A stretch of DNA of 64,000 bases from Moniliella sp. 'wahieum' (Eukaryota), in contig RSEE01000050.1 in the NCBI GenBank assembly GCA_003971905.1, positions 248,001 through 312,000 of the forward strand. Reading direction: 5' to 3'. Shown here in pieces: positions 1,873-63,520 of the stretch. Made by a program: the position numbers and the translations under genes. Under the pieces are notes generated by a model, which did no database searches, was not told the DNA's origin, and was given only the letters and a program-made list of their open reading frames with translations. The stretch's first letter is position 1, and each line of letters starts with the position of its first letter.

Positions 1873-2443
1873 TCGAGACCTTGCCTGGCTGTGCTTCACT
1901 GTTGTCTCCTAACGCCCTGCCACGATCATCATTTCCGTGATTCATTCAACTCGTCTGATGAATATAGCTGTAGGTCGACGACAACGACTCGCCTCTGCCA
2001 TCACACGAATAGACTCTCTTAAATGGAAAGGAGGGACAAGGCGAAGGGGGGGGAACTGGCGCGTGAATGACGTGCACTTTATTAAAAGCACATCAGCTGT
2101 GGTAGGGCCGAAGACAGGTTCTGAACGCGGCGTCAGGAAGATGGAACGGGCGGGGAAGGGGGCGCCCCTACCGGCGAGCGAAGGAGGGGGGTCGCGGTGG
2201 CTACCAGATGAATTGAATGTGCGTTGGCGCTGGGTCAAGTTAAGTACCTTTGGTCAGGCCTCAGGCTGAGGTGGATAATGGCAACCAGGATAACCCTAGG
2301 GCTGGGTGGCTGAGGCACCCAGGCACCCGCAGACCGGCTCCCGGGACCGGTGACATCATCGGTCGACCGGGCGACTGCTGCGCTCGTGCCTGCTGCCATG
2401 GCGGTCCTGCTGTGCCCCACCACCATCTCCACGTACGTGCGCC

Positions 2444-3612
2444 ATGGCAGAGGCAGACGAAGCACCCAAAGCATCCGTGACCGCATCAAGGCCTTTGAGG
2501 GCGGCCCTTCTCCAACACCTCCCGCCCCATCTGCGCCCAAGCCCTCCGTCACACCCAAGCCTTCCACCACACCTAAGCCTGCCACCACACCCAAACCTGT
2601 GACTACACCCAAGCCTGTGTCCACACCCAAGCCTGCGCCAACGGTTGCCTTGGCCCCTGCCACGCCTGCAACACCCAAGCCATCGGCAACCCCTTCGCCA
2701 AAGCCCCCTGAGGACGATCACCCCCTCCCGCCCCGCCAGGCCATCATTGGACCCGCCCCGACCCTCAACTGACTCGCTCGCCCCCCCATCTTCCCCAGCA
2801 TTGGTCTCTGGTCCCACCAGAGGCAAGACGCCCCCACCTCCCATGCCCGATCGGGCGTCCAAGCCGGTGCCTTCATCTCTTCCCTCACCTAAGCCATCGT
2901 CTTCGCCTTTGCTTGCACCTGTATCGGGAGCTGCTTCCACTGATCCATCGGGAGAGCCAGCGCCTCCGCCCCCTCCGCCTCGTCCGAGCGCGGCGTCGAG
3001 TGCGAGCGCCAGCTCGACACCCATACTTCCTCCGCGGCCGCTCCAGACGAGCCCCAGTGCACCATCAATTGGTCCCCCCGTTCCGCGCCGGCCGGCCGAG
3101 CCGGTACCTGCCCAGGCACCTCGGCTTCCTCCCCGGGACCATTCTCACCCTGTCATGCGCAGCAACACGACCCCCGCCCCACTCCGCCGCAGTACCGAGG
3201 CGAAACCGCAATTTACCTCGAATCTGTGACCTCGGGCTCGGCCTTGCTCGACTCGGTCGAGTGGGACTTTTCGATCTCTGTTCCGTCTGCTCCGAGATGG
3301 GTGCGGCCCGGAGAAGGGATCAGCGTTCCGCAGGAGGCGGATACGGAGGAGAAGGTGCGTTCCCTTGCCGGGGTACCCATCGACCCATCGGCCCGTGGGC
3401 GGTACAAAACGGTTTTCCTCTCCGTACGGGGCAGTGGGGCATCGGTGCCCAAGAGCGAGGCAGAAAAGGTGTTTGCTTACTCCAAGTTGGAGCCCCCCTT
3501 CCTTCAGGCGGTGCTGGCGTACGTATCTGCCAGCCAAGAGTTGGACGAAGACAGCTTTATCAAGGCCATGCACTTGATCGATACAGAGCGTTGGAGCGCA
3601 AGTTTTCGGTAG
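2444..3612 (+). CDS. Proline-rich protein with C-terminal EH-domain-like region
   Basis: N-terminal MAEADEAP/SIRDRIKAFE, then TPKP repeats and PPxP-R tracts. C-terminus ARGRYKTVF..SKLEPPFLQAVL..LDEDSFIKAMHLID resembles an EH fold. Frameshifted. Confidence 0.6.
2532..2680 (+). repeat. Coding 18-bp degenerate tandem repeat (xxTPKP)
   Basis: ACACCCAAGCCT-like units encode SVTPKP STTPKP ATTPKP VTTPKP VSTPKP. Confidence 0.85.
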
Positions 3613-4441
3613 TCGACCTTTAACTAAGCCACTGGAACGACATTCCTTGGCGTCCACACGATCCACTAAGAACGATCAACATTCCGGCTCGAGTCAGTCG
3701 GGTCTGGGCAAAGAGTGATCCCTTCGGTTCTGGCAGACCGAAGGGGAAGTATAGTCGGGCAAGACAAACGCTCGCATAGATCTGGATGCCAAAGCGGTTG
3801 TAGTACAGGAAGGCATCCGCTGGGAGATGGGGACCCTTGTCCATAAGAGGGGGGCCAATAGGTCCAATGAGAGCGGGCCTTACGCAGCGACACCCGTGTT
3901 CTAGCAGCCTGCACATGCATGCGCTCTGCCATTTCGAATATATGCAACTGCCAATGCACTGCCTCAGCAGACGAAACAGCAGGGCTTGCATCTTGACCTA
4001 TTTGATGCCGAGAGTGTCTCTTCGAGACAGAAACGTATATGTTTGGCGAAGAAAATCATTGGGCCGCAAGCGGACAAGACATGATGGTCTCACTCCTGGC
4101 ACCAAATCCGGGCCGTTTTCCAGGACCTGGACAACCTAATCGAGGCTGGAAAAACGTGTTAGAGATCGTAAACGAGTGGGCCTTGAAAAGAAGCCAGTCT
4201 CCTGGGAAGGGTGAACACATCAGAGGTCAGTGGTCTGGTCATGACGAACCAATAGTTGGATTGTCTGGCATTCAGGGCTTTACTCTCTGGATCCTTCAGC
4301 AGTCCGACGTCAATATCAGTTTTTCTCTATGCAGGCTGCAATAGTAGTGCAATTCATACGTGAAGCGGATGGAATCGATGGGCAGAGAACCCAAGATAGA
4401 GTACAGCAGGTGCGAGGCTCGTGGGGCTCGTGGGGCGCACG

Positions 4442-4742
4442 TTAAAGCTTGCCATGAGAGCACTTGCACGACGAGCCACAGTTGCACTCTTCGTCGCACC
4501 CACATGACCCAAGTTGGCCATCTGGGAAGGCTCGCTGGCTGGCGTCGAGGCCATGTCCACTGGCACAGCGGGGGATATCAATGGGTTGGCCTTCGGGGCA
4601 CAGCAGCTAGGGGTACTGGGCTCACTTGGCTTGGAGCAGCACTTGGCCGTCGGTTGAGGGGCGCAGCGACACTTTGGTACAGCGTCAGCACGTCAAGTAT
4701 CCTTGCTTTCCCATGAGGGAGCGGAGAGGGACATACGGGCAT
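4442..4742 (-). CDS. Metallothionein-like Cys-rich small protein
   Basis: ATG CCC, intron 4736-4672 (GTATGT..GCTGAC..AAG), then CRCAPQPTAKCCSKPSEPSTPSCCAPKANP. Restoring one base near 4583 continues IDIPRCASGHGLDASQRAFPDGQLGSCGCDEECNCGSSCKCSHGKL*. 13 Cys in ~78 aa. TATAA about 80 bp upstream. Confidence 0.75.
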
Positions 4743-4994
4743 GAGTAGGAACTGGGGACTGGTGGTGGGTGGTTGTCAGCCAGGTGGGTTGGGAGGGGGG
4801 ACCAGTGACGAGAAGAACGCTTATAAGCCGGCGGGCGCCGTGCTAACCGAGATTAGCTCGATTAGCAGAACCAGCAGTGCGTTGGTGGCTGGGTGGGCCG
4901 CCGCTTTAAGCGCGCTTTGACTGCCCTCGTGCTCCTCTTTCGGGAACCGGATCCTTGAATTCATCTGTTCAGAACTACGTACAGCTGTCAACGA

Positions 4995-5043
4995 GTCACA
5001 TGTCACATGTCACATGCACATGTCACGTGAGTGTCACATGCAC
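4995..5043. repeat. Heptamer array (ACATGT+C)n
   Basis: gtcacatgtcacatgtcacatgcacatgtcacgtgagtgtcacatgcac. Confidence 0.9.
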
Positions 5044-5059
5044 GGCCAATCTTTCAATC

Positions 5060-9822: not shown

Positions 9823-11492
9823 TCCTCAGCCAGAGGGCCAGGACGGCGTGCAGGCAGCACGTGCCTTTGCAGAGGCGGCCGCCAACCTGTGATCCCAACG
9901 TGGACTTTTTTCAGCTGTGGCATACCACATGGGAGTGTGGTACTGGCTGTGCCTCCTAGCACATTTGTATTTTCGCCGGGATCGCCTAGCCTCCTGTGCG
10001 TCCCCGAACACCAAAGTAAGAGTGTGTGTCGTGTGGTTGGTGGGCAAAGCGGGGGGATAGGGAGACCGCTTTGTGGCTAAAGTCATACACTTGTTTATAC
10101 CAAGAAACTCTTGTATACGCGTGCCGTTACTAGCCACAATGACTGGTGACTAGTGACTCTGGAAGCAGCACAGCCGCTGCAACATACGCCGAGACAGATG
10201 ACACCTCTATTCGCAAGCTTTCTCTCTCTAGTACTTCGATCGACCATGAAAGAGACGCGCTGGTTGCGCCCCATCCCTTGACCGACGAATGGGGATCCCG
10301 CACCGCATTCGCCTCGCCCCTTCGGGGCACACTCAGCTGATGGCACAGCGAGATGGACAATGGAAGAGGCTGAGCGATCGAGTAGGTAGTCGGGGGGGGT
10401 GCTGGTGAGGGCAAACAGTGGGATGAATGGATGGTAGCAGCGGGCGTTGTGGTCTGGCGTGGCGGCCAGCGCGACCACAAAACACAGCATTTCACCTGCT
10501 GCCCACACCCATCGCCCCATCCCACGCGGGGAGCAGACGGTCGACGAGCTGCTGCCGGCTACCGCCTGCCCCGCACTGCGATCGGATGCCAGCCGCACCA
10601 CACGCTCCCCTTAAGAGCCGCGCGGGGATACGCAGCATCTACCCGCGTACTACTCCGCGTCACCGGTCACCGTCTCTTAACTGCGCCACCAGTCCCACCT
10701 GCACGCCGGTTGGGGTTGAGCATGCGGCGCGGGAGAACCGAAGCAGGCGCAGGCGCAGCCACTAGCCACTAGTCGTCTGACTAGCTGCACGCAGCCGCCG
10801 GGACAGTGACGTGCAAATATACCCTTGCGGGAGCCGCAGGTGGGTTGGAGGAGGGGTCCATCGGACAGAGGAGTCTGCGTACCCACCACCACACCAGCCC
10901 CCCCTCTCCCCGCACCAGCGCGCCCCTCCCATATGCCAAATTCAGTCCATCAGTACGTGACGTTGACGTGACGTTGACGTCGATGTCGGGTGGCGTTGAT
11001 TCAAGCGTTGAAGGTGTGTAGTTGCGGGTGGCACCACGACTATCTCGGCTCTGAGAGATCGCACGTCTCCTCCTGTGTCGGCGCGATTTGGGTTGTGTCC
11101 ACAAAACAACACGTACGTGCTGGAACGCATACATTTGTGGTATCAACAGGCAGCAATGCGGGGGCCCCCCGCACACCCCTTTGGCTTTCTCGCGCGTTTT
11201 CTTCTCCCAGTGCACGTTTGCCACATCTCACCCTCAAAGCCTACCCGCCGATGATGGTGCGAACCATCTATACAATGGGCGAATAAAGGTTTTCTAACCC
11301 AACCATTCGCATCACTGTATGGCTGGCGGCGTTTCTTGATCGCAAGACCCAGTAGGTATAGAAGAGGTTTCTGTCGTCCATACAGGCACATCAAGGCTAT
11401 AAAACGCCCCGTACATTTGGTGCACTCGCCTATTTCGTTATCCGCCCTCACACCCATCACATCTCCCCCCCAATCTTCGGGGATCTTTCCAA

Positions 11493-14734: not shown

Positions 14735-15898
14735 AGAGACTGAGTGCATCATACCTCGCTGTTCATACCACCCCCCCGCCCTCCCTACCCAACCATATCT
14801 CCCCTTCACGCACGTAACCGCGGCTGATAGAAACGCCGCTGCAGATACATGTAGATACACAACAGAAAGCTATCTTTGTATGCAGAAGACTCTTCGTCTC
14901 CACGCAGGGGGGGCATATCTCATTCTGCCCCACCGTCTCTTGCTCTTCCTCCTCCTCTCTGCCTACGTATGTCTTCCATCGGCTTCGATCGCCGTAACCA
15001 TCAGACATTGGCGGATCGCTTTGTATGTGGGTCTAGTACTATAACGAGGTATGTTTATTGCTACCTGTGTTCGCCTTGTTTCTCTCTTTTACGCCAAAGA
15101 CTTTTCTCGGCTGCCACAACTATAGGAGTGCCATCATCGTGACATGATGCATGAATACCTATCCGGCGGGAGGAGGGGAGAGAGGGGTTAAACCATCATA
15201 CTAGCATTCTTGTTGGTGTGTGCGCCCCACATGCCGAGGAAGTATATTCTCCCACATTGCTGCTTGCTCTCCCAGTGCCCGAGTGATGGGGAGAGAAGAT
15301 GCGTAATGGTTTAAGTTTGTGGCTTTTGGACACCCTTCCAACAGTGGCACAGTGCTGCGGTGGCTGTCGGTTGGATAGACAATGATTAATGATGGCTCAG
15401 CAGCTCGTCACCTACTGCATGGCACGTGACGCGATCCCGAGCGCGTGCCTGTGCGGCGTGTTGGGCGTGTTGGATTGGGAGCAAGATTCCGCAGCGTCGC
15501 TGCGCAGCCGGTGGCATCACATGTGACGGTGGGGTGACTTGGCGTTGCGCAGCGGTGACGCATCCACAATGGATGCTGGCCACGCCCATCCAATGTCCAG
15601 CCCAGGCCGGTGCAGGCAGCTTCTACTGCCGCGCCCAGCCCACACTGCCCCCGTGCGGTGGATCCCGGCAGCCCCCGTCTGTGTGGATGCAGCCGACGCG
15701 CATCCCGGCACGGCGCCTGTCTGGCGGGCGCGGGCATCTGCCGCTGATCCCGCGCGTGATCGGGCACGAGGCCGCAGGCCAGCCGCAAGCAACACTCGCT
15801 GCCCAGCCCAGGCCAGGCCAGGCCAGCGCCGGCTGGCTCCCAGCGACCATCGCTGGCTGTCCGCATCCGTCGCCTATGCTGCACCCACCACACTCGCC

Positions 15899-22393: not shown

Positions 22394-22832
22394 CTCTGCT
22401 CTGGCAGGATGCTCGTGCCTATACCTCGTATGAAACGTAATACATAATACCCGTGTGTGTTGTGGCCAGGTCGCGATGGAGGGGTGGTAGGCCAGTAGTG
22501 GATAGAATGGGATTGGAGCTGACACCCATGGTGGGAGCTACCGGGGGATTGGGCTGTTCCCGATGTTGTTCCTCAATCGCATCAGTCAGTGCATCAGTGC
22601 AGCAGTATCACCGGTCACCGGGCCGCACTCGGTGGTCGGGTATATATGCAGTTTGACGTGTTAGGGTTAACGCGCTGAATCGCAAGACTTTTTTCCGCTG
22701 GGCCGCGACACGGACTAAATACTTCTTCCGACGCGGACTCGACGTGGTTGTGAGTACCAACTGCCTTGTCAGCCATCTCAGCTCTCGGACTGGCATCTCC
22801 TTTGTGTTTTCCAACTTGCGTCCACCACCATC

Positions 22833-24672: not shown

Positions 24673-26631
24673 AGCGCCATGTTAACGCCAGTCCTTATGC
24701 ATCATCGTTTGGATACGCAACTGTACTTTGAGTCGATGCAGGCGTCGATACTAACAGCGTCGCAGAGGCAAGGCTCCCAGCACGCATGCCCGCGTGACGG
24801 GCAATTGGTAATCCCTGTGCATACGCATGCCACATGGTACAACCTATATGACCAACGGAAGAGACTATACACAACCCGGGAGAGGGGGGCGGTCGGATTT
24901 CATATAGTTTGTGCTTGAGGTTGCCAGCGTAACCATCCAAAGGGAGGCTTTTCTTTATACAAAAGGGATGGAAAGGGTGCTTGCTGTTCGCGCCGAACAG
25001 CTTACCAACACACACTTAGCTTACCAACACACTTCCAACAGTGTGGGAGCACAGTTGTCTTCTCCCTGCTCCGCTGTCTTGGTTGTGGATTTTATACTCT
25101 CTATATACTCTCTACTTATAGGGTACTTAGGAGCGAAGGTGCATAGTCCCCCGCCGCTTTTAAACTCTCTATTTCTCTCGTTATGCTCTCATCGATCTGA
25201 TGCTTGGTGGAATTGCCTCTCGATCGGCACCGATCGTTCTGATTCATCGGCATCGACCATCGTCGTGTCCCCAACCTTTGGAAGTGTTGGCGCAATCTAG
25301 TTCGTATCTCCACACAACGAGACAAGCTGCCAGCATGCCGTGGCCCTCATACATTTCGAGGTCACATTTTCTCCTCGGCATCCCTGCAGCAGTGATGCTC
25401 GCGATGTGCATATTATCTCAGATCTCACGCACGCATGGGTGTGACATGGGACGAGATAAGATCCACATGTGGGCCAAGCATGCACGTGCAGAGGATTTGG
25501 TCTAAGGCCAACACATTCCTGCCTTCGTCTGGCTGCACACACATCTTCCACCTCAAAGCTTCATCGGTTCGTCAGGGTATCTACCGAGAGCCTAGCGCCT
25601 ACTGAGTTGAGTAACTGCCTATACTCAGACCGAGGCGTGCCGAGCTACCGGCAGTCACCATGTCCCTGAGGCATTCATGACGTGTGACGTGTGACGGTGA
25701 CGTGCCGCATGTGGCGTGCAGCCACGTGACTGACTCTTGGCATATGGCCAGCCGTCCCATGTCCCACCGGGCACCGTCACCAGCTAGTCACCAGTCCTAG
25801 TCACCCGAGGTGTGCCTACATGCTACCGGCGCAGCTCCGCCCACGCTCGGCTAGTGCGTGGTAGAATGGTCACCGGTCAGCTGTGGAATGGGGCAGGGCG
25901 GTGCAGGCAGCCACCAGCTCGGCAGGAGCGCTGCAGCAGTGCTTCAGCTTGCTTTAGCTCCAGTGCTTGAGCTGCCAGTATGCTGAACGTACTGAACTCG
26001 TTGCTTAATCAGTAGGACGTTACGCGTTATTAGTCACGCGCCATGCAGATCACTTGCCGCCACCGCCACCCGCAGCGGCCACAGTGCTCGGCTGCCCTGC
26101 CCTGCTCGCGTACTCCTGCGCCCGCCTCCGTTGCGAGCAGCACCTCGCCCTGGTGGCACATGGGAGGTCCGATCAACGCGAAGCGGCTGCCTGCCCCCGT
26201 GCTGCGAGGGGGCGCACGCACCTCTCCCCTTGCGGGCATCCTGCGCCCCTGTGGCCGATCGGCGCCGGTGCACCAGCTCCCAGGCCGCCTAGTCATAGGC
26301 AGCGCTCAGCGACCCCCTGCATCTGCATCAGTGCATCAGATTCTCTTGGCACCGCTGCCCCGCAACGCCAAGAGAACACTGCGACACAGCAGCACACAGC
26401 CCGTCTGCCGCAAGCGCCGCGCGAGGCCTCTAGAGCGCCGGCCTGCGCCGGCAGACCCTGGATCTCCGGTGTCGTTGGCATGCAGCAGGCCGGCCACGGC
26501 AGGCTACGCGCCAAGCCGAACCCTCCAATGCGTGTCCGCCTCTCGCGCGCATCCATCCACCCTCCCGCTCGCCCCTTCCCCCCCCCATCCCGCTTCCTAC
26601 CCCCCACCACCTGGCCCCAGCAGCCGACAAC

Positions 26632-28366: not shown

Positions 28367-28394
28367 GTGACGCGTGACGCCTGAGGCCTGACGT
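28367..28394. repeat. Heptamer array with drifting palindromic unit
   Basis: GTG ACGCGT G ACGCCT G AGGCCT G ACGT. Confidence 0.75.
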
Positions 28395-29136
28395 GCGATC
28401 CTGACATCAATCGATCTGACTAGTAGGCTAGGTATACAGTAGCCGAGTTACCGAAAACGGTCTTCCCCTGTCATCGTGAGTCCACCCCTGACCACACCCT
28501 CTTTTCGATAGGGAAAATGGCGAGGAACAGATAGAATTGTGTTGGCAATCGAAGTGAACCTTCGGACAGCGAGCAATTGCTGCTCCGATCCATCAGATTC
28601 CGACTCATCCCGGGCTAGTTGGGATCGTTGTCCTCGTCTCTTCATTGCACCCACTCATGTCAGCGGTGGTAATCACACTCTGTGCCTTTCGTCCGAAGAT
28701 CGGCATGGATATGCTTGGCAGCGCGGACAGATACAAAGTCGGCGGATGGTGGAGACACCTTCCGCAGCTGGTAGGCGTTCGTCGCAGGATGACCCAGTCC
28801 GTAGCCACTGCATATCGCGGTAGATGCGTCCGAGGACAGGTAACACGCCCTGCCGCTCCTTTCCCAGCGCGTGAACGCGTGGAGGGCAACGCGCAAGTGT
28901 CCGCACAGGGCCAGTGTAGGGCCCGCGTCGCGTAGCCGCTGAGAGTTGCAAATAAATGTCCGCTTTTAGAGTGGGTCGTCGCCACAGTCGGGTGGGGCGG
29001 CTGAGGTCGGCGGTGCCGCACTGGAGGTCACTCCACCACAGGCGGCGTCTGAGCCAACCAGCCGTGAACGTTGAACGTGCAACGCAGCCTCAGCCGCGCG
29101 CCCATCACCCCCACCGTCGCCCCGTTCTCCCTCGCA

Positions 29137-36667: not shown

Positions 36668-37159
36668 TCATGCATCATGCATCATGTGCCGAATAACTGA
36701 ACGTACCGAACGAGTCCTAGTTAAGCAACCAAAGGTATTGATTGGGTCATCCGGCCATATAGCATCCACATGTACTGTTCCCTCCTCTCACATATAACTC
36801 GCCCCTCAGGCTCAGGTGCGAGCAACGGGCCCTGCGCGACACATGTCCCAAAGCATGCTTCCGCATAATGCCAGTGACTAGTGACTAGTGACTAGGGACG
36901 CGTGACGAGTGCTAGTGATCTAGTGACCGACCCGACTATTTTCTCTCGCCGCTATCATCGATATATCACCGGCAGCGTCAAGTCAGATCACACGTCACAT
37001 GTCACATGTCACAGATCTCATATTTTAAGTGTAGATCAAGTTTCAAGCTAAAGTCCGGGGGCTGTCACTACAAACGCTTCTCCACACTGTCTTCTGTTTT
37101 GGCAACTGAATATTTCCCCAGATATCACTGGCTGTGGGATAATCGATAATCGATAATCG
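36668..37159. repeat. Cluster of four different heptamer arrays
   Basis: (ATGCAT+C) 36668-36686; (ACTAGT+G) 36873-36895; (ACATGT+C) 36994-37013; (ATCGAT+A) 37138-37159. Confidence 0.9.
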
Positions 37160-44424: not shown

Positions 44425-44755
44425 GCACGAATGCTTGTCATGGTGGATAGGTTGGAGTGGAGAACAAGGAGATGCTTTCCTTAGTTGGACAAGCCTTTTT
44501 CTTCGCCACTTGGTACTTCAACGTTCCATGTTCGACAGAAAAGCAGCTTAAAAATCCGGTGCGGGGCGGAATGATCGGTGACCGGTGATCGATTGTCGGT
44601 GTAATGTGCGCGTCAATTAATGACAGCTCCAGTACTTCGTTGGCAGTGCACCCATGTAGACCTAAGTCCCAAGAGTAAAGATAGAGCATCGATCAGGTCC
44701 GCAAGCCCCTGTGTTATATACCCCTTCAGCTTCCTGGCCCCACCTTTAAAGCAAC

Positions 44756-45725: not shown

Positions 45726-45806
45726 GGTGGTTGCCGCAATCGTGATGGTGGTGCCGGTACTGTGACCTCGCATCCGACATTTGCTCCTCGGCTTGGTGCC
45801 CCAAGA

Positions 45807-45827: not shown

Positions 45828-46348
45828 TCGTTGCGCTAGGGAAATTGAATATTGACTGCTTAGCCGTTTCCCGTTGGTGCCCCACCAATTTCCAGTGGGC
45901 ATAGGCAAGTGCAGGTGAATGGTTCTACGCACTCTTTGGCACAGCCATCCGAGTTCCATTGAACGAGGCGGCAGCCGGCCATTGCCTCAACGTTCAACTG
46001 GCTGGACGATGATAGACGATGTTAACCCATTTGTGTGAAAGCGCTAGGCAAGTCCAAATTCTGGCTACCGTATATCTGGTGTAGCTCGGTACTACTAGTA
46101 GTATGTAGTCCACACTCAGAGACGCTCGCCATCAACACTCGACAAAACAAAAGAATAAAAGAGAAGGTATCCCAATAAGTAGACAACCAGTATCTATGCC
46201 AGCCTTGCACCTCTACAACATCCAGGAGTTCACTAAAATATGGGACTACGGTCAAGTGAACGGCCATTGTGTCGCAAGTTGTGGCAGAACTCCATATGAA
46301 AAAAGACAAAACAAGTTCAGGTATTGAAATACGCGACAAGCCGCGGCA

Positions 46349-50075: not shown

Positions 50076-50394
50076 GGCGATCGCGAGGCGGGGCAGGGTA
50101 GTTGGGGATGAGCATTCGTCCTGCCCATGCTCGCAGCACGAGCTGCTGGCATCCGCTGCCATGCCCAATTCCGCCGCGCGTTCCGCCCTAGCACGCGACG
50201 CGATTGTCGTGCTTCAATATTCAATGTCTTTTGGGCCAGAAAAATGCACCCCCCTGGGAATAGCATGTGACACCCCGCCCCGGCGCTTCAGCCCACCCGC
50301 TCCTCGTCGAACACCACCCTGACGGTGGCACGGACTGAGATGGGCATAGGCATCGCCGTTCCATTATGCTCTTGCGCTCCGCTACTGCCACTTA

Positions 50395-51784
<1,390 letters not shown>

Positions 51785-52031
51785 GGTGTACAGTTGTGGC
51801 GGCGGTGACAGGAAGGAGAATGGAAAGGGGAAGAGCGGGAGGACAGAATGGGTCACATGATGCCCTGAGGCCACAGGTTTCATCGATCATGCATGGGCCT
51901 CCAAATTTTTTTCGTTGGCTGGGGCTAAGCAGTTACATCAGCTGCGTCATTCCGCCTACCCTTCCGCCGCTGCACGCACCTTGCTTTATATTGGGCAGCT
52001 AGCTGATGGCAGGCTGACCCGGCGAGTACCA

Positions 52032-52973
52032 ATGGCCGCGCGGGACGCCGACCCAGCCGGGTCTGGTAGCCGCCACGCTTCACCCCATCACCAAGCCAGC
52101 CAGCCGCTGCAGCAGCACATATTCATCGCCATCATCCACCTACTGGGCCCGCTGGTCTACATTTCCACCCTCCAACTGCTTGCGGGTCCTGCGGTTCCTC
52201 TCCGGGAATCATACGAACAGGCCATGGCTCGCGCCAAGCGGGAAGCCAAGAGCTTATGGCCGTGCTGAAGTGAACTAACGTTGTGTTGTCTAGTGACGCA
52301 ACTACTTCACGCAACGATGTACCCGTTTGTTGTATTTATCTCACCCCAGCCACAAACCCAGTCCCACCCTGGTGCACCAACTCGCATGGCCGTCTTGTCA
52401 CAGCACGAAGGGCTGGAAGTGCAAGGCTTGCCACTCTATTGGAGCATTCGTACTGTCTCGTTCCCAGGGTAGGGAGCTGCCTCCCTGCCTACAACGGAAG
52501 CAAAAGCAACGCGACCACATTGACGATTGTCCCTTCTCTCCTCGGAGGGGTGCCTGCTGTTGACCAGTGGCCCAGTTTGATCCTAGCAGGAAGGTGTACC
52601 TTGCATGGTGGCTTTGGGCCTCGACGAACGATGCGAAGTTTCAAAGAGTGTGGATCAAAGTGATCCTCAGGCCTCAAGCCTCAGACCATTGCGTCTCTGG
52701 TTCGTTCCGCCTCGAGGCATAGCACCGGGGTTCATCGCGTACGTACCCCCCCAGTCGGTACCAGTTGATGTGCTCTTTCTCGCTGTGGAACTGGATGCAC
52801 TGCCTCTCCTTCCCGTGAACGGGCCAGATGAAGAAAGAGTGGAGGAACCCCCGTGGCCTACGTACAATTTCCCCTTCATCTCAATCAGCGCCCATACCCC
52901 CTGTTTCTTCACCGGGACCCTTCAGCTTCAAGCTTCGAGCTTCAAGCTTCACCAGCTTCACCTTCGCCCCTGA
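52032..52973 (+). CDS. Possible hypothetical membrane protein
   Basis: ATG 52032, hydrophobic segment HIFIAIIHLLGPLVYISTLQLLAG, then successive + ORFs. No recognised domain. Confidence 0.3.
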
Positions 52974-53798
52974 TCGATGATCTGAGCGCCCTGAGCGCCC
53001 TGAGCGGGAGATGCTAGCACAGCCCTTCGGGTGCATCAGGCTTAGTAGCGCTGGACGTGCTCCCCATGATTAATGGGATAAGTTAACACAATCTAGTTGT
53101 TACGGGGCCGTTCCTGGGAACGTGGCGCAGCGCGACAGAATCAGGTACAGGACAGTGAATGTCCGTGTCATGGAACAGGGTCGCGAGCAACTGGCCATTT
53201 TCAGCCAAAAAATGCCTCTTGGCCGAATCGAACGACCGATCTTCTCATATACCAGGTTTACTAGTGAGATGCTTTACCACTGAGCCAAAGAGGCCTGGAT
53301 GTCCAGGCTATATTTTGACTCACTCAGTCTACGTTGAGCGGATAACGACTTGGAAACGCGTGCAAACAAAGCGTGTATTTGGTGTGGCCCAAGTCTTCGA
53401 GCATATCTGAAAGAGACAGGAGACAGGGCAGGGAGATGGAGATTGAGCAAACTGGAGGCGGTGCAGCCTGCCAAGGAAGAAACCCTTCCAGCTTCCGCCC
53501 CGATAATCAGCGAGCGCACGTCACCGGTGAGGTCACTGTTGAAGTTCAACGTTCAACCTGAGAGCCGTGCGGGGGAACCATAGCACTATTCTGCACATCC
53601 CCGTGGCGCATGCACGGCGCAATATGCATCGAGGATCGACTATCGATGATCGATGGCGCTCGCAAGGGCTCAGGCGCTCAGGCATGCTCGGGCGGGACGA
53701 GGCGCCTATTAGCATCCTGGGGCTACCGGTTACCGGTTACATTTTACCGGTTACCCGTTGCATGGTATTGTGCCTGGAGCAGCGATGATCGATCGATG
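52921..53798. repeat. Cluster of short palindromic arrays
   Basis: (AAGCTT+C) 52921-52960; (ATCGAT+G) 52971, 53641, 53783; TGAGCGCCC x3 at 52983; (ACCGGT+T) 53724-53757. Confidence 0.85.
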
Positions 53799-55610: not shown

Positions 55611-55673
55611 ATGCGGTATAGTGGCTGTCGTTTTGGTTGGCTGCTCTCGCTTCCTTTTCAAACCTTCTCTCTA

Positions 55674-55720
55674 TCTTTCGAGCGTCTTTCGAGCGTCTTT
55701 CGAGCGTCTTTCGAGCGTCT
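55674..55720 (+). repeat. 11-bp tandem repeat x4 (TCTTTCGAGCG)
   Basis: Perfect copies just 3' of the CDS. Confidence 0.95.
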
Positions 55721-56752
55721 CTTTCTTTGTGCCTGTTCTGTTCGTCCGCTTGTGGTTCCATTTCGATTACCCTTTACTGCTTCCTCTTCCTCGCGATGAA
55801 CGACGGTTACTTCCCTCCATTTCTCTCGACTGAGGTCTCCTTCACCTTATCCCTCGACCTGCAACAGTGAATGCCAGTTGTGATTGTTTGCGACCGCTTG
55901 AGGATGGAAATATCCTCGAGATGATGCTACGAACCCAACCCTTGTGATGACTGCCACTTTCGTCTCCTTTGTGACTCAATCTCCTTCGGGTGGGTCATGA
56001 TTACTGCCCCAGAAATGCGACGCAGTGAGGGGGATTCCTCTCTGTGTTGGTTCTGGGTTACAGTCTCACCTTCTCCCCCTACTACACACCAACTACCCAC
56101 TTCTCGTTTCAACCACAGTGACGTTGACGACTGCTGTGCCTCCATCTTGGCTGACCATCGCCTCCTACTACGGGCCAGTGAACCTACATGGATGGTTGCA
56201 CGGTGCACGTAACGAATGAACGAACGAACGGACGAACGAGTGGCGTACGCCACAACCTCGGCAGGACTCCCGGAGCATGTATGCATGGATCTATAGACTT
56301 GTCAACCCGCACAGCGACAGGGCAAGCTTCAGCTGGACACGGTCGACCACGCTGGGGTTGGAACAGAGAAATCGTTCAGGCTTCCCTCCTCGCGAGGAGA
56401 GAGAGAGAGAGACAGCAAACCGAGAGGGGGGTAAAGAGCGTCCAGCAAAGCAGAAAGTGAAAGTCCAGAGTTATATAGTAGAGCGGGGGGCGGGGCGGGG
56501 GAACAGGAAAGGGGGGAAAGGGAGGAAAAGAGGGACAGGGGGCGGTCAACGTTCCAGCTGCCATCAACGTGAACCTTACCCCACGCGAGAGGCATGGGGC
56601 AACTTGGCCCCCCAGGTGGACCAAGCATCAAAGTCCAACGATTGGGGTAGGCCGTCGAGAAAGGTAGGATCGACAGCGGGGAAAGCAGGAGCGCCAGCAG
56701 ACGCTCCGCTTCGCCCTGGCGAAGGGGGTGACGGGTTGCTCTCGCCTGCCCA

Positions 56753-59700
56753 CTAGGGCCTGGTAAGGCCCACGCCGTCGGGCCAGGCGAGCCGGCTGGA
56801 GCCTCAAACACAAATGTGGTAGGCGTCGACCAGATCAGGTCGTTTAGTCTCGGATTCAGGTTGGGCGCGCTGCCTACCACAACGGGAGGCGCAGAGGGAT
56901 GCGGACTGGCCAGCGAGGAGATGGGGGCTGAGCAGCAGCGCCGAATCCAGAGCTGGGGGGGCACGGGAACGTGGTGACCACCTTGGCCCCCGGTACCGGG
57001 CTCGAACCTAACGGGCTTGCCATCATAGGCGCTCCCCACCGGCCGCGAAGGCGACCGAAGCGGGTGCATCCGTCGCCCGCCCTGTGCGAGGATATGAAGG
57101 AGCGAAGCCGACGTGATGGGCCACTTACTTGCCTTCGGGTTGCAAACGTCCTGCGAAGGGGTGCGATGTGCGCGAAGCGGACTTGCTGCAGATCCGGATC
57201 GGTCGCTCCGCGTCCACATTCGCACCGGCATCCGCATCCGCATCCGCATCCGAGCGCTTGCGTTTCAATTCGCCTTTGGCTTTCTCGGTGCTCTGAATTA
57301 CTGTTCCACCAGGCAAGTCCTTGGCCACCAACATGTCGGCATCCGCAACGAACACCCCGCCCCCGGGCAGGGTGGGATCGGGGCGGAACTTGAGCGAAGC
57401 CACCATTTCCACCGTCTTGCGGTTGCTCACTCCAGCTGTGGGATTCAGCACTCCGTCCCAGAGAGAGGCACGACGCGGACCCTTGGCAGGAGCGTCGGAA
57501 GGATAAGCACCCTGAGCTGCATCGAGAAGAATCTTGAGCACCGCCCCACACTTGCTGCGCCAGGAAGCGTCCGTGGAAGAGATGGCCTCCACATGTTCCT
57601 GCACCTCCTGCGAGGACGCAGCTGGCGTGGTCTTTGGCGAAACTCCACTCTTCTTGCGAACGTGCATTGACGGGGTCCGCCGACGCATACACCTTCTCAA
57701 TCGTTCGGAGCTTTTCCAGGGCCACTGGTCCTTCCTTCGCACATACGCGTGGTAGAGCAGGGTGGCACACGAGACGATGCAGTACGAGATGCAGGACAAG
57801 GTGTCGCAATAGAATGGGTGGGCGGCAGCCCAGTCGCAGGCGCTCTTGCACGCCGTGAGCATCGCCGTCATTCGCTCGATCGTGATGGAGAAGCGAAGAT
57901 GAGTGGGACAGACATACGAGATGCGCATAAAGACACGGAAGAAGAGAACCAAGAGACAGGCATAGCTCACTTGCAAGATTCCGGCCCGGGGTTGGCCGTC
58001 GTATCAGTGTATTTCAACTGAGGCGGCAGCGCATCATGCCATGCGTCAATGTCAGCCAGCAGACCTTCGATCTGAGCATCGGTAGCATTCATCAGCCCCG
58101 TGGGGGAGTAGATCGTTTTCAGCACCCTGCCCAGCAAAATGCTCAACTTGACCATCTCAGTGTTAAACGCAAACACCTGTGTCTCCCCTGTCACGGCGGT
58201 TGAGCCAGGAAGGGGCATGTCGGAACCGGGCTTGCTACGTACCACCTCGACGGGCGAGGGGAGCCGGACATCGCAGTCGGTCAAATCGATAGAAAGCGGG
58301 CGGCCGGCGTACAAAGACGCCCATCGATCCGCGACACACAAGCACCCCAGATCCGCCGGCGTTGTTCGATATGATACGCATCAGGCGTGCTGCCATTGGC
58401 GCGGGAGATGGACTCACGGTGGAAACCGAGATCTTGGGCCATCCGAATCCCCAGCCCGGTCCGATTCCAGTGGCGCGAGGGCGCTTGGAGGAAGGAACCA
58501 TGAACATCGTGGTGCAAGGACATGATCAAAAGGGAGCGAATGGTGGTCGTGTGGGAGCGGGAAAGCATCGCGCCGTCTTTGAAAAGGGTGGCCACTTCCC
58601 CTCGCAACACAGCCCGCACCTCCGACGGCACTTCCCGGCTCTGCGCAGCAACAAACAGATAGAGTAGAGCAACGCCGGTGGGGTCGGGGTGGTATAGACA
58701 AACTCACTCTTGGTGACCACCGGAAAGAGAGTGCCCAATTCAGCAAAGTACGAATTGGTCAGTTTCTCGGCCACATCGCCAGCCAGCTGGCGACGGGCCA
58801 TGTCCGCTTCCAACTTGATGGAAGCCGGCGCGCCCACGGGCAAGTCATCCCCATCCGAATCGCTCTCGGCCACCGCGCTCCGGCCTCTGGGTGGCTTGTG
58901 GAATTTGATGACTCCATCTCCATTGGCACCCACCTCAAAGGTCTGATGAGCCTGGCGGTCGTGCTCCTCAATCGCACCTGTCGGCACAAAGGGCGTGGAA
59001 TGCACGAGATAAGCGATGGAGGTGGGCCCCAGGACAGTAGCGTCGACAGCAGCCACACCCGACTCGGCACTGCCACGAAGGCCAGAGGTCGATGGCGGGC
59101 GAAGACCTTCGTCGTCGACTGAGTCTTCCGGACTCGGCTTTTCCGGCGGCAAGAGAGAGCCTTCGCCGAGGAGGGACCTGCCACAGCAGCATACGTGCCG
59201 GATGTGTCACCGTCTGCCTCCTTCTTCTTTTTGAACCGCGTCTCGGAAATGGGCAGAACGAAGGAGCATTCTAAGGCAGACTCATGGTTAGCAAGCGATG
59301 ACAGCAACAGAGTAAAATGACGCACCTAGGCCGTAAGTGCGACAATGGACACACATCTTGAGGGGCTCGATGATGTCGCAGCGGATGCGCTTGCGGCGGC
59401 AGCAGTCGCACGCACGCTGCGTCTTTTGTCGCTTACTTGCCGGGGAGGGATGGGGACACCGCCGACAGTGGTGGGTGCAGATATAGCGGCAGCAGACGTG
59501 GGTGCTCCGGACGAGGCTGGCAGGCCGGCGGGGGCGCTGGCCTGCGGAGCAAGGTGGCGCTGGTGGGCATAGGCAAAGGCCTGCTCCTCGTGGGGAGAGG
59601 GGGCGGTGGGAGGTAGGACAGGGAGGCGCGGGCAGAGGGCGGGGCGTAGCGGGGACGCTTGTGGGGCGGTGGCGGGTAGAAGTAGGGTCGTACTCGTACC

Positions 59701-59988
59701 CGTACTCGTACTCGTACGCGTCTTGGGGGGCAGCCCCGTCTTCGGGGGCGGTAGGTGGGGCGGGCATGGCGTAGGCGCCGTAGGCGCCGTATGCGGGCAA
59801 GTCGGGCGGGGGGCGGGGCGGGAGGGCGGAGTAGCCGCTGCTGGAGGGGCGGCGTGCGGGTGGGCGGAGGGGAGGGGCATGGCGGCCAGCGCGGTCGGCA
59901 GCGGCGGGAGCGTGCTGGGCGTGGACGCAGCCGCGGCCGGGGCGGCGTGGCCGAGGGCGACGGACGAGCGGGGGCGCGGGGCAGACAT
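56753..59988 (-). CDS. Zn(II)2Cys6 fungal transcription factor with fungal-specific TF middle domain
   Basis: RACDCCRRKRIRCD..CVHCRTYGL|ECSF (intron ~59273-59326). YFAELGTLFPVV, GIRMAQDLGFHRE, EQRRRIW, ADRWASLYAGRPLSID, KLSILLGRVLKTIYSP. Ends approximate. Confidence 0.9.
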
Positions 59989-60450
59989 GCGGGTGGGCAC
60001 TGTGGGCACGGCACGCGCAGCAACGCGAGCAGCCCAGGCGAAGCAACGGCAGGCAGCGGCGAGCAGGCGGAGGCAGGAGAGGAGGAGACGGGAGGCGCGA
60101 GCAGCCGTCTGCCGGTGCTGCCGGCTGCCTGTGCGGCGCCCGGCGCGGGTGTGCGCTGTGTGGTGTCCTGCCCGGCCGCGCTGACGGGCCGAGGTGTCTG
60201 GGCACTGCAGTAGGCAGCAGTGCTCATGCAGGCCGCAGCAAGCCGCAGCGCCATGCTGTGTGCTGCTCTGTGCGGCTCTGTGCTGCTGCGTGCTGCTCTG
60301 TGCGGCTCTGCGCTGCCATGCTCCCTGCCCGCTCCGGCACGCTTGCTCGCCGCGCCGGCACGCCCACTGCTGCTCTGCCGCCCCCTGCCGCCGCCGCCGC
60401 CCCCTTGCCGCTGTGCCGCTCTCCCCGCCCCATCGCCATCTCACCAGCAT

Positions 60451-61090
60451 TCACCGGTCACGCTCGGGTCACCGGTCACTGGCCGCCCGCCTCCATCTGC
60501 GGGTCCGGCCGCGCTCATGCGTCCGGCCGTTGTTCCGGCGCTCCCCCACGTCACAAATCGCACACGCCACATGTCACTCCGGCCTCACCGGTCGCCACCG
60601 CCCACCAGGCACCACGCCTCTCGCGTTGCCGGCGTCACCGGTCACCGATCAACGGCCACCCGGGACCACCCCCCTGGGTCGTGGGATGCAGCACGGCGGG
60701 GCACATCCCGCATCCCGCTTCCCGCATCATGCATCATGCATCATGCCATGCATCATGCATCATGCATCATGACTCGTACTCGTACCATCTCGAGCGTGCG
60801 AACTGGTGCGCTGGTGCGCGGAGGCTGCGGCGCGAAAAATGCTTGCTGTGTGGTGCGTGGGGTGACAAGTTTCGGACACTCAGGCACTGCCAGCCCAGGC
60901 CAGCATCCAGGCCCCCGCCCAGGACGCGATCATCCATAGCGACCATACTTCTCATGCATCCCAGCGCTCGCGCTCATCGATCATCGATCATCTCGATCAT
61001 CAACCGTCCTGTACTACGAATGGGTCCATGCCTATGGGACAGCTCGCTGGTTCGCCAATGAGATCGATGATCGATGATCGATCTGATCTC
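60451..61090. repeat. Cluster of heptamer arrays upstream of the Zn2Cys6 gene
   Basis: (ACCGGT+C) 60451-60480 and 60635; (ATGCAT+C) about 6 copies 60724-60771; (ATCGAT+C) 60975-61001; (ATCGAT+G) 61059-61090. Confidence 0.9.
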
Positions 61091-62779
61091 TCATGCATCC
61101 TACCTCGGCCTCATGCATCCTGGCCTCATATTCATGCCGATCGCACTCATCGTGTTGCCTCTTTTACTGGTCTACTGCCGCTCCAGTTGCCGAGGAATGG
61201 CCAAACCCAGCGCCTGAGGCTGGCTGTGGGCGCCTGAGTACTGGGCGAGAGCCGAATGGGGGTTTGGCGTACTGGGCTGGGCGAGGTGCTCTGTGCAACG
61301 TGTATATCTCGGGTAGCTGTGTAGGCTTGTGCACTAGCCCCATGCCAAGCAGCCAAGGCTGCTCGCAGCCGCGCCTGATTATGATTTGAAGCTTGGCATT
61401 TGAGTGCCTCCTGCCGCCACAGAGGCCGCGCGCAGCGACTGGGTGCTCAGACAGCCAGACGAGCGGGCAGAGCCAGCAGAGCTCCCCCCTTGCATTCATC
61501 CACCTAGTTCGCACCACAACAGCGTGGCATAAGTGCGACAGGGCGTTACATACTATGGGGCGCCACATAGGATGAGTGTGACATTTGCCGACACTTACTT
61601 TCCTCCCCTGAGATCGATGAGAGCCTGAGGCCTCTGGACCTCAGGCCAGCATCCGCAGGTCGCTCCCGCCCATTGAGTTGCATGCAGTGCTTGTCTGTCC
61701 CAAGTCCGGCCTCCACTAGCCACTCCAGCACCCCTGCCCGCCGGGACCAAGTGGCCACTGTAAAAAAACGCTCCGACCGCGACGAAACAGCTAGGGAACT
61801 CATCGATATCACCAGCACGGAGATGATCGATGACCAGTGATCGGTGCACGAATTGTAGCGAGTGGAAAAGCGGTGTCGGCCATAGAGGGTAGGACGGAGA
61901 CACAAGAGCACGAAGGAAGGTGCAGTCTAACGAGGACACGACTGTCACACAGCATCATTTATCACCGCTATGAGCATGTCGGCGCCGCAAAGGATTTGTT
62001 AGGGAAGATATCACCTCCACGTCGCCAACTCCCCCTCCTCCACACCAGAAAGCTTGTCTAAACAAGAGCAAGGTGGAGAAATAGAGATCGGTCAGCCGGC
62101 ACAGCTACGGAGCATGTTAAGAAAGAAAAGAGTCGTCACTATAATGGTGGCAGAACCCACACCATCAAATACGACGCCAAATGAAAACCCGAAGGAGAGG
62201 GGCAGCAGTACGGTCGGCGATGATCATGCAGCGCATCAGGCCTCCCTGTGAGGCCTCCTCAGCCTCAGGCCTCAGGGTGCTACGAGCAGAGAGATGAAAA
62301 TAACACGAACGCTTGCTTACCGAGCTCACTCGGTACTCAATCAGATCGTCAGTTCGATTGTGCCATACCAGGTCATACCATGTATTTATACACTCCGTGG
62401 ATGGGCTCAGAAACGGGGGGATTCGAGGACCATGTGTGTTGCTCAGTCCGAGCCTTGTCATACATCATGTTTCAACTGTAATGCGTAACGGAACGGATCA
62501 TGCAGTACCCCAGCGTACGGGCGCTTCAAGCTTCAAGCTTCAAACTTCAGCGGTTATGCGAAGAGCGGCCACGGTTGGGGAAGCTTTATGATAAAGCAGT
62601 ATCGGGGGGGCTCTCGGGGCTTGAACAACTAATAGTACCTAGTAACAAAACTTACTCCCGAGGAAAGGATCAAAAACGATAAGGCAAATCCATGCGCCCA
62701 GGCAAAGCGGTGAGCGAGAGAGAGGACGGGCCTTTGGGGGCCAAGCGCCAAGCGCAAAGAAACAATTAGTACAGTCCTT

Positions 62780-63520
62780 TTGATATTCTTCTTTGTGTGA
62801 TAGTAGATCGAACACGACGGAAGAGGCTACCTTCGAGACGTCTTAGTAGTTTTTCTGAAGATCAGTCCATTTAGTGAGCATTTCTTAGCCCATGTAGAGC
62901 GGGAAAGAGGGAAGGTGTTACGGGGCGCTCCGGTTATCTCCGGACGCTGAGCCCCGCATGTCGTAGACATCTCAGCCCAACATGCGTCAGTCCGGTTAGA
63001 CTAGCGAGAGAGAGCCAGTTGACATGTGACATGTGACACCTTATCCTTGCTGCGGATATCATCCGCGGCCCGTCATGGTCGCATGGGCTTATCGGTACGA
63101 TGCTTTGTGCCTATTGCGCCCAGTCTTGTCAGAACCCTTCCTGCTGCGCCCGACTACGCAGCGTCAGCGCCTTGGGAAGCAAGGGCTGTGTATTAGTCTT
63201 TTCCTTTCTGGGAAGTGCCCCGCATTCTGTCTATACCTGTCATGAGGCACTTGTGGCCTGGTTCCTTCTGCTGAATATAAGCAGCCATGTCTAAGGCTTG
63301 CTAGCTGTGGTCCTTGTCGACCGTCCTGTCTATTACCGTTGGTCTCCCCGACTACCAGTTCCTCTCTCGCCCTTCCACCTTCTACCACCCTTACGCTTAC
63401 GAATTTACGACTTACGTCGAGTGCACTGCAGGCCGCGGTTACTCTCACCAGTAGCGCTTGCTCTTCTTTAGGACTCTGTCTGTTCCCGCCAGCTACAGCG
63501 TACCAAGTGTGGTAACGCTG
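62780..63520 (+). mobile_element. Probable degenerate LTR retrotransposon 3' end (chromodomain relic, PPT, LTR)
   Basis: Purine tract AGAGCGGGAAAGAGGGAAGG directly abuts TGTTACGG at 62916. Stop-riddled FFV**..NTTEEATFE upstream. TATAAG at ~63276. Right end of the LTR not determined. Confidence 0.5.

What the first reader, a model, noticed from the sequence alone, without database searches (positions are those of the whole stretch)
2254..63038. Intergenic 7-bp arrays with one shared grammar: 6-bp A....T palindrome plus one spacer base
Seen: short tandem arrays of different sequence but the same construction recur between genes. ACATGT+C (4995, 36994) or +G (63020); ACTAGT+G (10141, 36873); ATGCAT+C (36668, 60724); ATCGAT+G/C/A (53641, 61059, 60975, 37138); AGGCCT+C (2254, 52665, 62260); AAGCTT+C (52921, 62525); ACCGGT+C/T/G (22608, 60451, 53724, 44577); ACGCGT+G (28367); AGTACT+G (30239). 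Units begin with A and end with T, so junctions read T-N-A, mostly TCA/TGA. Each array alternates even and odd centres of symmetry and is nearly its own reverse complement. Slippage alone does not explain a fixed period of 7 across about nine unrelated cores. Inference: a shared generating process, e.g. repeated cleavage and hairpin/fold-back repair at TSA sites (footprints of a 3-bp-TSD transposase such as PIF/Harbinger, or a nuclease), template switching, or selection for a structure-reading promoter protein. I recall intergenic heptamer repeats (CACGAAT-type) in Ustilago maydis, but that is from memory and is a different unit.
Basis: partly seen in the sequence, partly recalled or inferred. 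Interest (0 to 1): 0.8.

Follow-up and report, generated by a model that had tools for sequence, protein, structure and literature searches.

The report
Iterated transposon excision scars in fungus
The 7-base repeats between the genes of this smut-related fungus are real and look like healed scars left each time a jumping gene landed on a T-any-A site and cut itself out again, so they form a dense natural record of DNA-hairpin repair and show one way that new tandem repeats arise.

Summary
Confirmed. The window holds 50 exact TNA-(4-bp palindrome)-TNA units against 2.3 in shuffles, mostly outside genes. The assembly contains allelic contigs. In all 21 of 21 clean 7-bp allele differences with a 5-bp duplication, the spacer is the reverse complement of the two adjacent duplicated bases. 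The full rule is a 7-bp target duplication centred on TNA plus 1-3 P-nucleotides, usually trimmed to a net 7 bp. Among 79 multi-unit arrays, 56 never change core, 23 change once and none changes twice, as repeated hits on one site predict. Best reading (0.75): excision footprints of a cut-and-paste transposase that hairpins its flanks at the exact border. A 3-bp PIF/Harbinger duplication, hAT-type odd palindromes and pure slippage do not fit. I did not find the element; only end-less CACTA-like genes turned up. The scan noted this pattern before on many other pieces of this genome, and unchecked notes there report 5-kb EnSpm-like copies with 7-bp duplications.

The parts
2254..2263 (.). single footprint TCA-GGCC-TCA
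4851..4866 (.). untrimmed footprint: 7-bp duplication GATTAGC with 2 P-nucleotides
4996..5012 (.). two-unit array TCA-CATG (degenerate array extends 4995-5026)
10147..10156 (.). footprint TGA-CTAG-TGA; allelic contig C2 lacks 7 bp
10660..10669 (.). footprint TCA-CCGG-TCA
15145..15154 (.). footprint TGA-TGCA-TGA; C2 lacks 7 bp
15383..15392 (.). footprint TGA-TTAA-TGA; C2 lacks 7 bp
22608..22617 (.). footprint TCA-CCGG-TCA upstream of the aspartate kinase gene; C2 lacks 7 bp
25418..25427 (.). footprint TCA-GATC-TCA; C2 lacks 7 bp
25870..25879 (.). footprint TCA-CCGG-TCA, shared with C2
26020..26029 (.). footprint TTA-CGCG-TTA; C2 has the empty 5-bp site
28368..28391 (.). two neighbouring footprints (TGA-CGCG-TGA, TGA-GGCC-TGA) in a degenerate array
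29065..29074 (.). footprint TGA-ACGT-TGA, shared with C2
30252..30261 (.). footprint TGA-GTAC-TGA, shared with C2
35809..35815 (+). empty target site in the window; C2 carries the filled form (5-bp duplication plus 2 inverted bases)
36668..36684 (.). two-unit array TCA-TGCA
36875..36891 (.). two-unit array TGA-CTAG (degenerate array to 36927); one unit fewer in C2
36995..37011 (.). two-unit array TCA-CATG; one unit fewer in C2
37140..37156 (.). two-unit array TAA-TCGA
44579..44588 (.). footprint TGA-CCGG-TGA
45846..45996 (.). two single footprints (45846 TGA-ATAT-TGA; 45987 TCA-ACGT-TCA)
50214..50223 (.). footprint TCA-ATAT-TCA
51880..51889 (.). footprint TCA-TCGA-TCA
52667..52676 (.). footprint TCA-GGCC-TCA
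52920..52980 (.). cluster: TCA-AGCT array, untrimmed 7+2+7 footprint at 52947-52962, TGA-TCGA-TGA at 52971
52990..53005 (.). untrimmed footprint: 7-bp duplication CCTGAGC with 2 P-nucleotides
53546..53555 (.). footprint TCA-ACGT-TCA
53628..53682 (.). eroded TGA-TCGA array and an untrimmed 7+1+7 footprint at 53668-53682
53730..53753 (.). TTA-CCGG units in a degenerate array (53724-53759)
60451..60644 (.). three TCA-CCGG-TCA footprints (60451, 60469, 60635)
60727..60769 (.). long TCA-TGCA array; shorter in C2
60974..61077 (.). TCA-TCGA array, untrimmed 7+2+7 footprint at 60986-61001, TGA-TCGA unit at 61068
61824..61833 (.). footprint TGA-TCGA-TGA
62265..62274 (.). footprint TCA-GGCC-TCA
62526..62542 (.). 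two-unit array TCA-AGCT; longer in C2
63020..63036 (.). two-unit array TGA-CATG inside a solo LTR; two other copies of this LTR lack the 14 bp, so it was gained
62916..63786 (+). solo LTR (TG...CA, 5-bp duplication GAAGG) hosting the 63020 array; context only, not the source

Best explanation
The arrays are accumulated donor-site footprints of a cut-and-paste DNA transposon. (1, inferred) A dimeric transposase inserts at xy-TNA-ab (weak consensus C-n-T-S-A-n-G) with a 7-base stagger, so xyTNAab flanks the element on both sides. (2, inferred) On excision each flank is sealed as a hairpin exactly at the border. (3, inferred) A host nuclease opens the hairpin 1-3 bases off the tip, which gives P-nucleotides. 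(4, sequence outcome shown, chemistry inferred) End joining gives either TSD + P + TSD, or far more often xyTNAab-b'a'-TNAab, where the P extension b'a'T can pair with the T of the other TSD copy. The mirror outcome from the other flank is about as frequent. (5, structure shown) Every footprint still contains target sites, so further hits add units with the left core to the left and the right core to the right. This builds period-7 arrays with at most one core switch. Slippage probably lengthens the longest arrays. The enzyme is most likely of the CACTA/Transib/RAG-like or Kyakuja kind; I did not identify it.
For: Empty versus filled alleles: 21 of 21 clean 7-bp indels with a 5-bp duplication have the inverted spacer; 41 of 66 clean 7-bp indels fit the model, 30 with a TNA centre, against 0 of 25 TNA-centred fits at 5 bp. 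Untrimmed 7+P+7 products: 14.3 (P=2) and 11.6 (P=1) per 10,000 TNA sites, against 0.2-1.2 and 0.8-1.8 for seven control trimer classes. P matches are confined to duplications ending exactly 2 bases after TNA and fall away beyond 2 bases before it: 162/214, 14/31, 17/44, then 1/3. Site preference is symmetric about N: x=C 11.8 and b=G 11.9 events per 1,000 sites. 79 multi-unit arrays: 56, 23 and 0 with zero, one and two switches; 17 of 23 mosaics have both flanks as predicted; one-sided singles 142 versus 132. Mirrored products are followed by ab in 41 of 128. Gain polarity inside an LTR. Flank hairpins are documented for hAT, Transib, RAG and Muta1 (PMC5499845, passages).
Against: No element with ends and a 7-bp TNA-centred duplication was found in about 1 Mb fetched. 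No hAT, RAG1, Harbinger, MULE or KDZ family match was found in the assembly (controls did not ring for 33, 34, 47). The Transposase_21-like genes found (C17 with its allele C62, and C34) lack recognisable ends, and the one CACTA-type element seen to be polymorphic has a 2-bp duplication. 25 of 66 clean 7-bp indels do not fit; 67 of 402 single units match neither flank prediction. Extrapolation gives tens of thousands of scars, which is a lot for a low-copy element. Polarity was shown at one LTR site only; the wider polarity test had no power.
Confidence: 0.75

Rival explanations
1. A host-retained (domesticated, end-less) transposase or other nuclease makes the scar in a hit-and-run reaction: a 7-base staggered cut at TNA, fill-in, hairpin sealing and rejoining, without a stably inserted element.
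For: The process is seen in every subgenome sampled, 20-270 units per 100 kb, although their aspartate kinase genes are only 67-82% alike. No intact element was found. End-less Transposase_21-like genes sit among host genes at C17/C62 and C34.
Against: P-nucleotides start exactly at the edge of an already completed 7-bp duplication, which is natural after insertion and later excision but needs an unexplained blunt-end hairpin step otherwise. Plain 7-bp duplications without P are not clearly above background (80 non-canonical per 44,114 sites, controls 13-26 per 10,000). The C17/C62 gene is broken and no C34 allele was returned. Unchecked notes report elements with this duplication.
Confidence: 0.17
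2. Replication template switching (fold-back of the nascent strand after TNAab, return at the T) creates the unit, and slippage amplifies it; no transposase is involved.
For: It explains 5-bp duplication plus 2-3 inverted bases formally. Long arrays differ between alleles by many units.
Against: It does not predict the untrimmed 7+P+7 class or the sharp two-base limits on both sides, nor the restriction to T.A (162 of 214, most other classes near background). Other symmetric classes that would fold equally well are absent (6 of 227; control 0).
Confidence: 0.05
3. The arrays are selected binding sites for a protein that reads TGA/TCA spaced 7 bp apart or a cruciform-like structure in promoters.
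For: They are intergenic and clustered (variance 31 versus mean 2.9 per 2 kb).
Against: All 16 cores occur, cores are templated by the flank, and many sites are presence/absence differences between alleles. Later co-option of some arrays is not excluded.
Confidence: 0.02
4. Basecalling or assembly artefact of long reads.
For: Housekeeping genes in this assembly carry frameshifts, and no independent reads were checked.
Against: Many arrays are shared base for base by two separately assembled allelic contigs, they avoid coding DNA, and they obey a rule with a one-switch structure.
Confidence: 0.01

Closest known systems
V(D)J coding joints (RAG1/2) and Transib excision
   Same: Hairpin on the flanking DNA, opened and joined by host end joining (PMC6854553 and PMC5499845, passages). 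Even-centred P-nucleotides at the exact border are recalled from general knowledge and match the pattern here.
   Different: RAG transposition makes a 5-bp duplication; here it is 7 bp centred on TNA. No RAG1 match was found.
Ac/Ds and other hAT excision footprints
   Same: Stereotyped footprints with short P-nucleotides and a few dominant products, as in Candida albicans (PMC5873905, passages). A fungal hAT7 group makes 7-bp duplications (PMC12730594, passages).
   Different: hAT palindromes are centred on the complement of the bordering base; these are even palindromes with no central base. No hAT dimerisation domain was found.
EnSpm/CACTA (CMC/CMCT clade; CNIRT6 of Cryptococcus)
   Same: RAG1-related clade (PMC12730594); Transposase_21-like genes are in this assembly. 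Unchecked scan notes describe 5-kb EnSpm-like copies here with 7-bp NN-TNA-NN duplications.
   Different: Described fungal members make 2-3-bp duplications, and the CAC-ended element I saw makes 2 bp. The link to the scars is not shown here.
Kyakuja (KDZ) transposons of Agaricomycotina
   Same: Basidiomycete elements with 7-bp duplications and no terminal inverted repeats (PMC12730594 section 19), which my inverted-repeat scan would miss.
   Different: No KDZ domain match (control silent); I saw no report of their target motif or footprints.
Muta1 (MULE)
   Same: Flank hairpin of 43+43 nt, consistent with cleavage at the border (PMC5499845, passages).
   Different: 8-9-bp duplication and more than 90% precise excision in yeast; no MULE match here.
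[quoted passage not shown]
   Same: Short intergenic repeats in a related subphylum member, suggested to be TE footprints (PMC4081816, passages).
   Different: The passages give no sequence or rule; I did not see the primary papers, so identity with this pattern is untested.

Membership tests
PIF/Harbinger footprint | 3-bp target duplication | tested here: not met
   Duplication reaches 2 bases on each side of TNA
PIF/Harbinger footprint | DDE_Tnp_4 transposase in the genome | tested here: not met
   0 matches; control rang in 1 of 14 genomes; the assembly has frameshifts, so absence is not proven
hAT / hAT7 footprint | 7- or 8-bp target duplication | tested here: met
   7 bp; hAT7 described in PMC12730594
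hAT / hAT7 footprint | palindrome centred on the complement of the bordering base | tested here: not met
   Palindromes are even and start at the duplication edge versus PMC5873905
hAT / hAT7 footprint | hAT dimerisation domain in the genome | tested here: inconclusive
   0 matches, control silent
Transib / RAG | flank hairpin leaving P-nucleotides at the exact border | tested here: met
   Sequence outcome fits; the hairpin itself is inferred
Transib / RAG | 5-bp target duplication | tested here: not met
   The 5+2 look is a trimmed 7-bp duplication
Transib / RAG | RAG1-like transposase in the genome | tested here: inconclusive
   0 matches, control silent
EnSpm/CACTA (CMC) | Transposase_21 domain in the genome | tested here: met
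   C17 E 1e-12 over cut-off, C34 below cut-off; not linked to the scars
EnSpm/CACTA (CMC) | 2-3-bp target duplication | tested here: not met
   Scars imply 7 bp
EnSpm/CACTA (CMC) | CAC...GTG-type ends flanked by the scar's 7-bp duplication | tested here: inconclusive
   None in about 1 Mb of 69.5 Mb; reported only in unchecked notes
Kyakuja (KDZ) | 7-bp target duplication | tested here: met
Kyakuja (KDZ) | KDZ transposase in the genome | tested here: inconclusive
   0 matches, control silent
MULE | 8-10-bp target duplication and MULE domain | tested here: not met
   7 bp; 0 matches, control rang in 3 of 14
Tc1/mariner-type footprint (TSD plus element end bases; recalled) | core derived from fixed element ends | tested here: not met
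   Core is copied from the flank in 21 of 21; 16 of 16 cores occur
Slippage microsatellite | new unit is a direct copy of an adjacent unit | tested here: not met
   First unit arises from a site with no repeat and includes inverted bases; later growth of long arrays may be slippage
Any hairpin-forming transposase | hairpin intermediate and excision in vitro or in vivo | not testable with these tools
   needs experiment

The most novel reading that the evidence does not exclude
A so far undescribed RAG1/CACTA-related transposase lineage with a 7-bp TNA-centred duplication, or a host-retained form of it, has acted throughout the history of this deep Ustilaginomycotina clade as a standing mutator of intergenic DNA. 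It has written tens of thousands of V(D)J-like joints into spacers and built a whole class of tandem repeats by re-hitting its own scars.
Probability: 0.4. Interest if true: 0.8.

Novelty: new variant of a known kind. Interest (0 to 1): 0.62.

Why it matters
Excision footprints are normally seen a few at a time in reporter assays. Here 481 chains in 564 kb extrapolate to roughly 50,000-60,000 in the assembly (my extrapolation from 0.8% of it). That is a ready-made library for reading where a fungal nuclease opens hairpins and how one-base pairing steers end joining. It shows a route to microsatellite birth that needs no pre-existing repeat, and it allows a transposase's stagger and target preference to be read without the element. 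It may also bear on the unexplained short repeats of Ustilago maydis. I found no paper describing this genome-wide pattern in five searches aimed at it; the library lacks most subscription papers, so that is weak evidence.

Tried and rejected
Generic hairpin-favoured slippage: rejected, other palindrome+1 classes are at background. 5-bp TSD model: replaced by 7 bp. 3-bp TSD model: does not produce the copied ab bases, and TCA-2-TCA is not enriched. LTR insertions as the source: their duplications are 5 bp, with TNA in 2 of the 9 I read by eye. Large allele indels were LTR elements, a non-LTR element, a gene deletion and a CAC-ended element with a 2-bp duplication. Inverted-repeat plus 7-bp duplication scan: top hits were arrays or host regions shared by both alleles. 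Family searches for hAT, RAG1, Harbinger, MULE and KDZ were empty. The C17 Transposase_21 protein found no longer relatives; a distant full-length relative found only C17 and C34. A 7-base end-motif count was uninformative and a scan for such ends in fetched DNA found no family. Sequencing runs: none was listed, so no reads were laid. The repeat-family polarity test had no power beyond the window's LTR. The paper search on Moniliella as a possible genus gave nothing useful (listing only); the genus is not determined.

Full report
Setting. The window is part of contig C50 of a 69.5-Mb, 223-contig assembly. Its genes are fungal: acyltransferase, Sel1-repeat, Gpr1/Fun34, PH-domain, AAA_12 helicase, proteasome subunit and CHD1 pieces (7 of 15 ORFs matched), MetAP2 and aspartate kinase, whose best hits are smut fungi at about 50% identity. 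In a single-gene FastTree of 28 sequences the 8 assembly copies form one clade (support 1.0) among Ustilaginomycotina and outside Ustilaginales; deeper placement is weak and several copies are frameshifted. The aspartate kinase region occurs on nine contigs, which form allele-like pairs: C50/C2 94%, C9/C38 92%, C6/C124 94.5%. These pairs made the key test possible. The genome could not be read whole, so the counts below come from about 1 Mb of fetched stretches: ten arbitrary 20-kb blocks plus the syntenic regions.

Observation. Confirmed. The window has 50 exact TNA-(4-bp palindrome)-TNA units against 2.33 in shuffles. In 664 kb, period 7 is the commonest short period, and 138 of 227 runs are of the A....T class against 6 for the other three palindrome classes. 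The trimer is repeated directly (33-35x) and not mirrored (3-6x). One pattern counted genome-wide gave 670 overlapping matches and its equally symmetric backward control 0. Units are about six times rarer per TNA site in long ORFs and cluster in hot spots.

How a unit is born. I aligned about 260 kb of allele pairs and kept indels with at most 2 mismatches and no other gap in 14 columns on each side. 7-bp indels stand out: 66, against 25, 39, 17 and 9 at 5, 6, 8 and 9 bp. Of the 66, 21 have an exact 5-bp duplication, 11 a 6-bp one, 16 are tandem, and 18 have 3 bp or less. In 21 of 21 of the first group the two extra bases are the reverse complement of the adjacent end of the duplicated 5-mer. 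So TNAab becomes TNAab-b'a'-TNAab, and the short allele has no repeat at all. The core comes from the flank, which explains why all 16 cores occur. At window 63020 the array lies in a solo LTR, and two other copies of that LTR lack the 14 bp, so the event is a gain.

The real duplication is 7 bp. The site logo is symmetric about the N of TNA, not about the middle of the 5-mer. That predicts a stagger spanning xyTNAab. In 564 kb with one allele of each pair dropped, complete 7-bp duplications with 1 or 2 inverted bases between them are about ten times above seven control trimer classes; 38 of 46 and 61 of 91 such duplications with 1- and 2-base spacers are explained by P-nucleotides, against 29 of 62 and 15 of 109 in controls. 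Inverted spacers occur in excess only when the duplication ends exactly two bases after TNA, and they stop when it begins more than two bases before. The dominant product (688 counts over both strands, 156 per 10,000 sites) has lost xy from the second copy. It can be written as two P bases with two lost, or three with three lost and a shared T; the sequence cannot tell these apart. Because the untrimmed class is also TNA-centred, the preference belongs to targeting and not only to joining. A minor CNA class exists (17 of 73).

How arrays grow. A symmetric site can be scarred from either flank, so an array should carry at most two cores, the left set by xy and the right by ab. Of 481 chains, 79 have several units: 56 have no core switch, 23 have one, none has two; 17 of the 23 have both flanks as predicted, and single units are one-sided to the right or left about equally, 142 and 132. 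Against this, 67 of 402 singles match neither flank; chance matches and later mutation may account for them, which I did not test. Large allele differences in long arrays suggest added slippage.

Mechanism. Shown: the sequence rule, its limits, both directions, the one-switch structure, non-coding location, one polarity case. Inferred: insertion, hairpin, opening and joining. A duplication followed by P-nucleotides is the known outcome of transposases that hairpin the flank: hAT, Transib, RAG and Muta1 (PMC5499845, 12 passages; PMC6854553, 12 passages). Ac/Ds palindromes are centred on the complement of the bordering base (PMC5873905, 8 passages), whereas these are even, which points to border-exact chemistry like RAG (the even form for RAG is recalled). 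Fungal groups with 7-bp duplications are hAT7 and Kyakuja; EnSpm-like groups make 2-3 bp (PMC12730594, 12 passages and section 19; bioRxiv 10.1101/2025.05.19.654958, 12 passages). PMC4455052 (4 passages) only confirms that hAT entries with 7-bp duplications exist. I did not open any supplements; the TSD tables of PMC12730594 and the closed bioRxiv supplements could hold a matching family.

The enzyme was not found. Five family searches were empty, three of them with silent controls. Transposase_21 matched C17 and weakly C34. C17 and C62 are alleles of one broken gene without ends. C34 has three reading-frame pieces, no ends, and nine distant relatives, 7 of 9 with Transposase_21. A CAC-ended element present only in C2 makes a 2-bp duplication. 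About 30 clean TNA-centred events in 260 kb at 6-8% divergence could be produced by a low-copy element active over a long time (inference), so not finding it in 1.5% of the assembly is not surprising.

Earlier scan notes. I had reached this reading before the first look-up (stated). Searches show that many agents noted the same pattern on other pieces of this genome; that is not independent support. Four notes describe decayed 5-kb EnSpm-like copies with 7-bp duplications, three of them said to fit NN-TNA-NN. I could not locate them, so they remain a lead. If their reported ends hold, the ends are two bases longer than CACTG and the duplication four bases longer than the usual three, which would suggest a shifted cutting register; this is speculation.

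Verdict. Real, mechanistically well constrained, and a new variant of a known kind: excision footprints are known, but their use as a genome-wide, self-iterating source of tandem repeats with a 7-bp TNA-centred duplication did not appear in my searches (listings only). Interest 0.62, held down by the missing enzyme and the lack of any sign of function.

Noticed in passing
whole assembly: Nine copies of the aspartate kinase region at 67-97% identity fall into allele-like pairs, while seven 18S copies compared are 99.0-99.8% alike. Either a high-ploidy hybrid or a mixture of related strains of a poorly sampled Ustilaginomycotina lineage.
   Followed up: partly
window 62916-63786: Solo LTR with a 5-bp duplication, absent from the C2 allele; other family copies carry their own 7-bp insertions at different places.
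   Followed up: partly
window about 36100-36306: Another solo-LTR-like repeat, with relatives elsewhere in the sample.
   Followed up: no
L016 (C2:1002909-1005629): 2.7-kb element with CACGGGCG-type inverted ends and a 2-bp duplication, inserted in an LTR and absent from the C50 allele; no transposase recognised by eye.
   Followed up: partly
L091-L092 (C2 about 977400-981660): 4.25-kb insertion with a 961-aa reading frame that looks by eye like a non-LTR reverse transcriptase with a terminal endonuclease-like part; direct repeats near its ends, no clear duplication; about 10 partial copies in the sample.
   Followed up: no
L098 5259-8872 (C34, minus strand): End-less Transposase_21-like gene in three frames, about 1,200 codons in all, with only distant relatives; could be a domesticated gene broken by sequencing errors.
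   Followed up: partly
L039-L040 (C38 about 379300-384450 region of the syntenic block): An LTR element inserted inside an AAGCTTC array with the duplication TCAAG, so arrays also receive retroelement insertions.
   Followed up: no
L033 123-1999: A 1.9-kb part of a gene of unknown family (window 19700-22400 orthologue) is deleted in the C38 allele between two TCA trimers.
   Followed up: no
window 10955-10980 and 25678-25704: Degenerate TGACGT-rich arrays of mixed period 5-7 that do not fit the exact rule; possibly eroded scars.
   Followed up: no
C50:326000-334000 (L075-L076): Hot spot with up to 42 units per 2 kb against a mean of 2.9.
   Followed up: no
window, many genes: Frequent frameshifts in housekeeping genes point to unpolished long-read sequence, which lowers the sensitivity of protein searches.
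   Followed up: no
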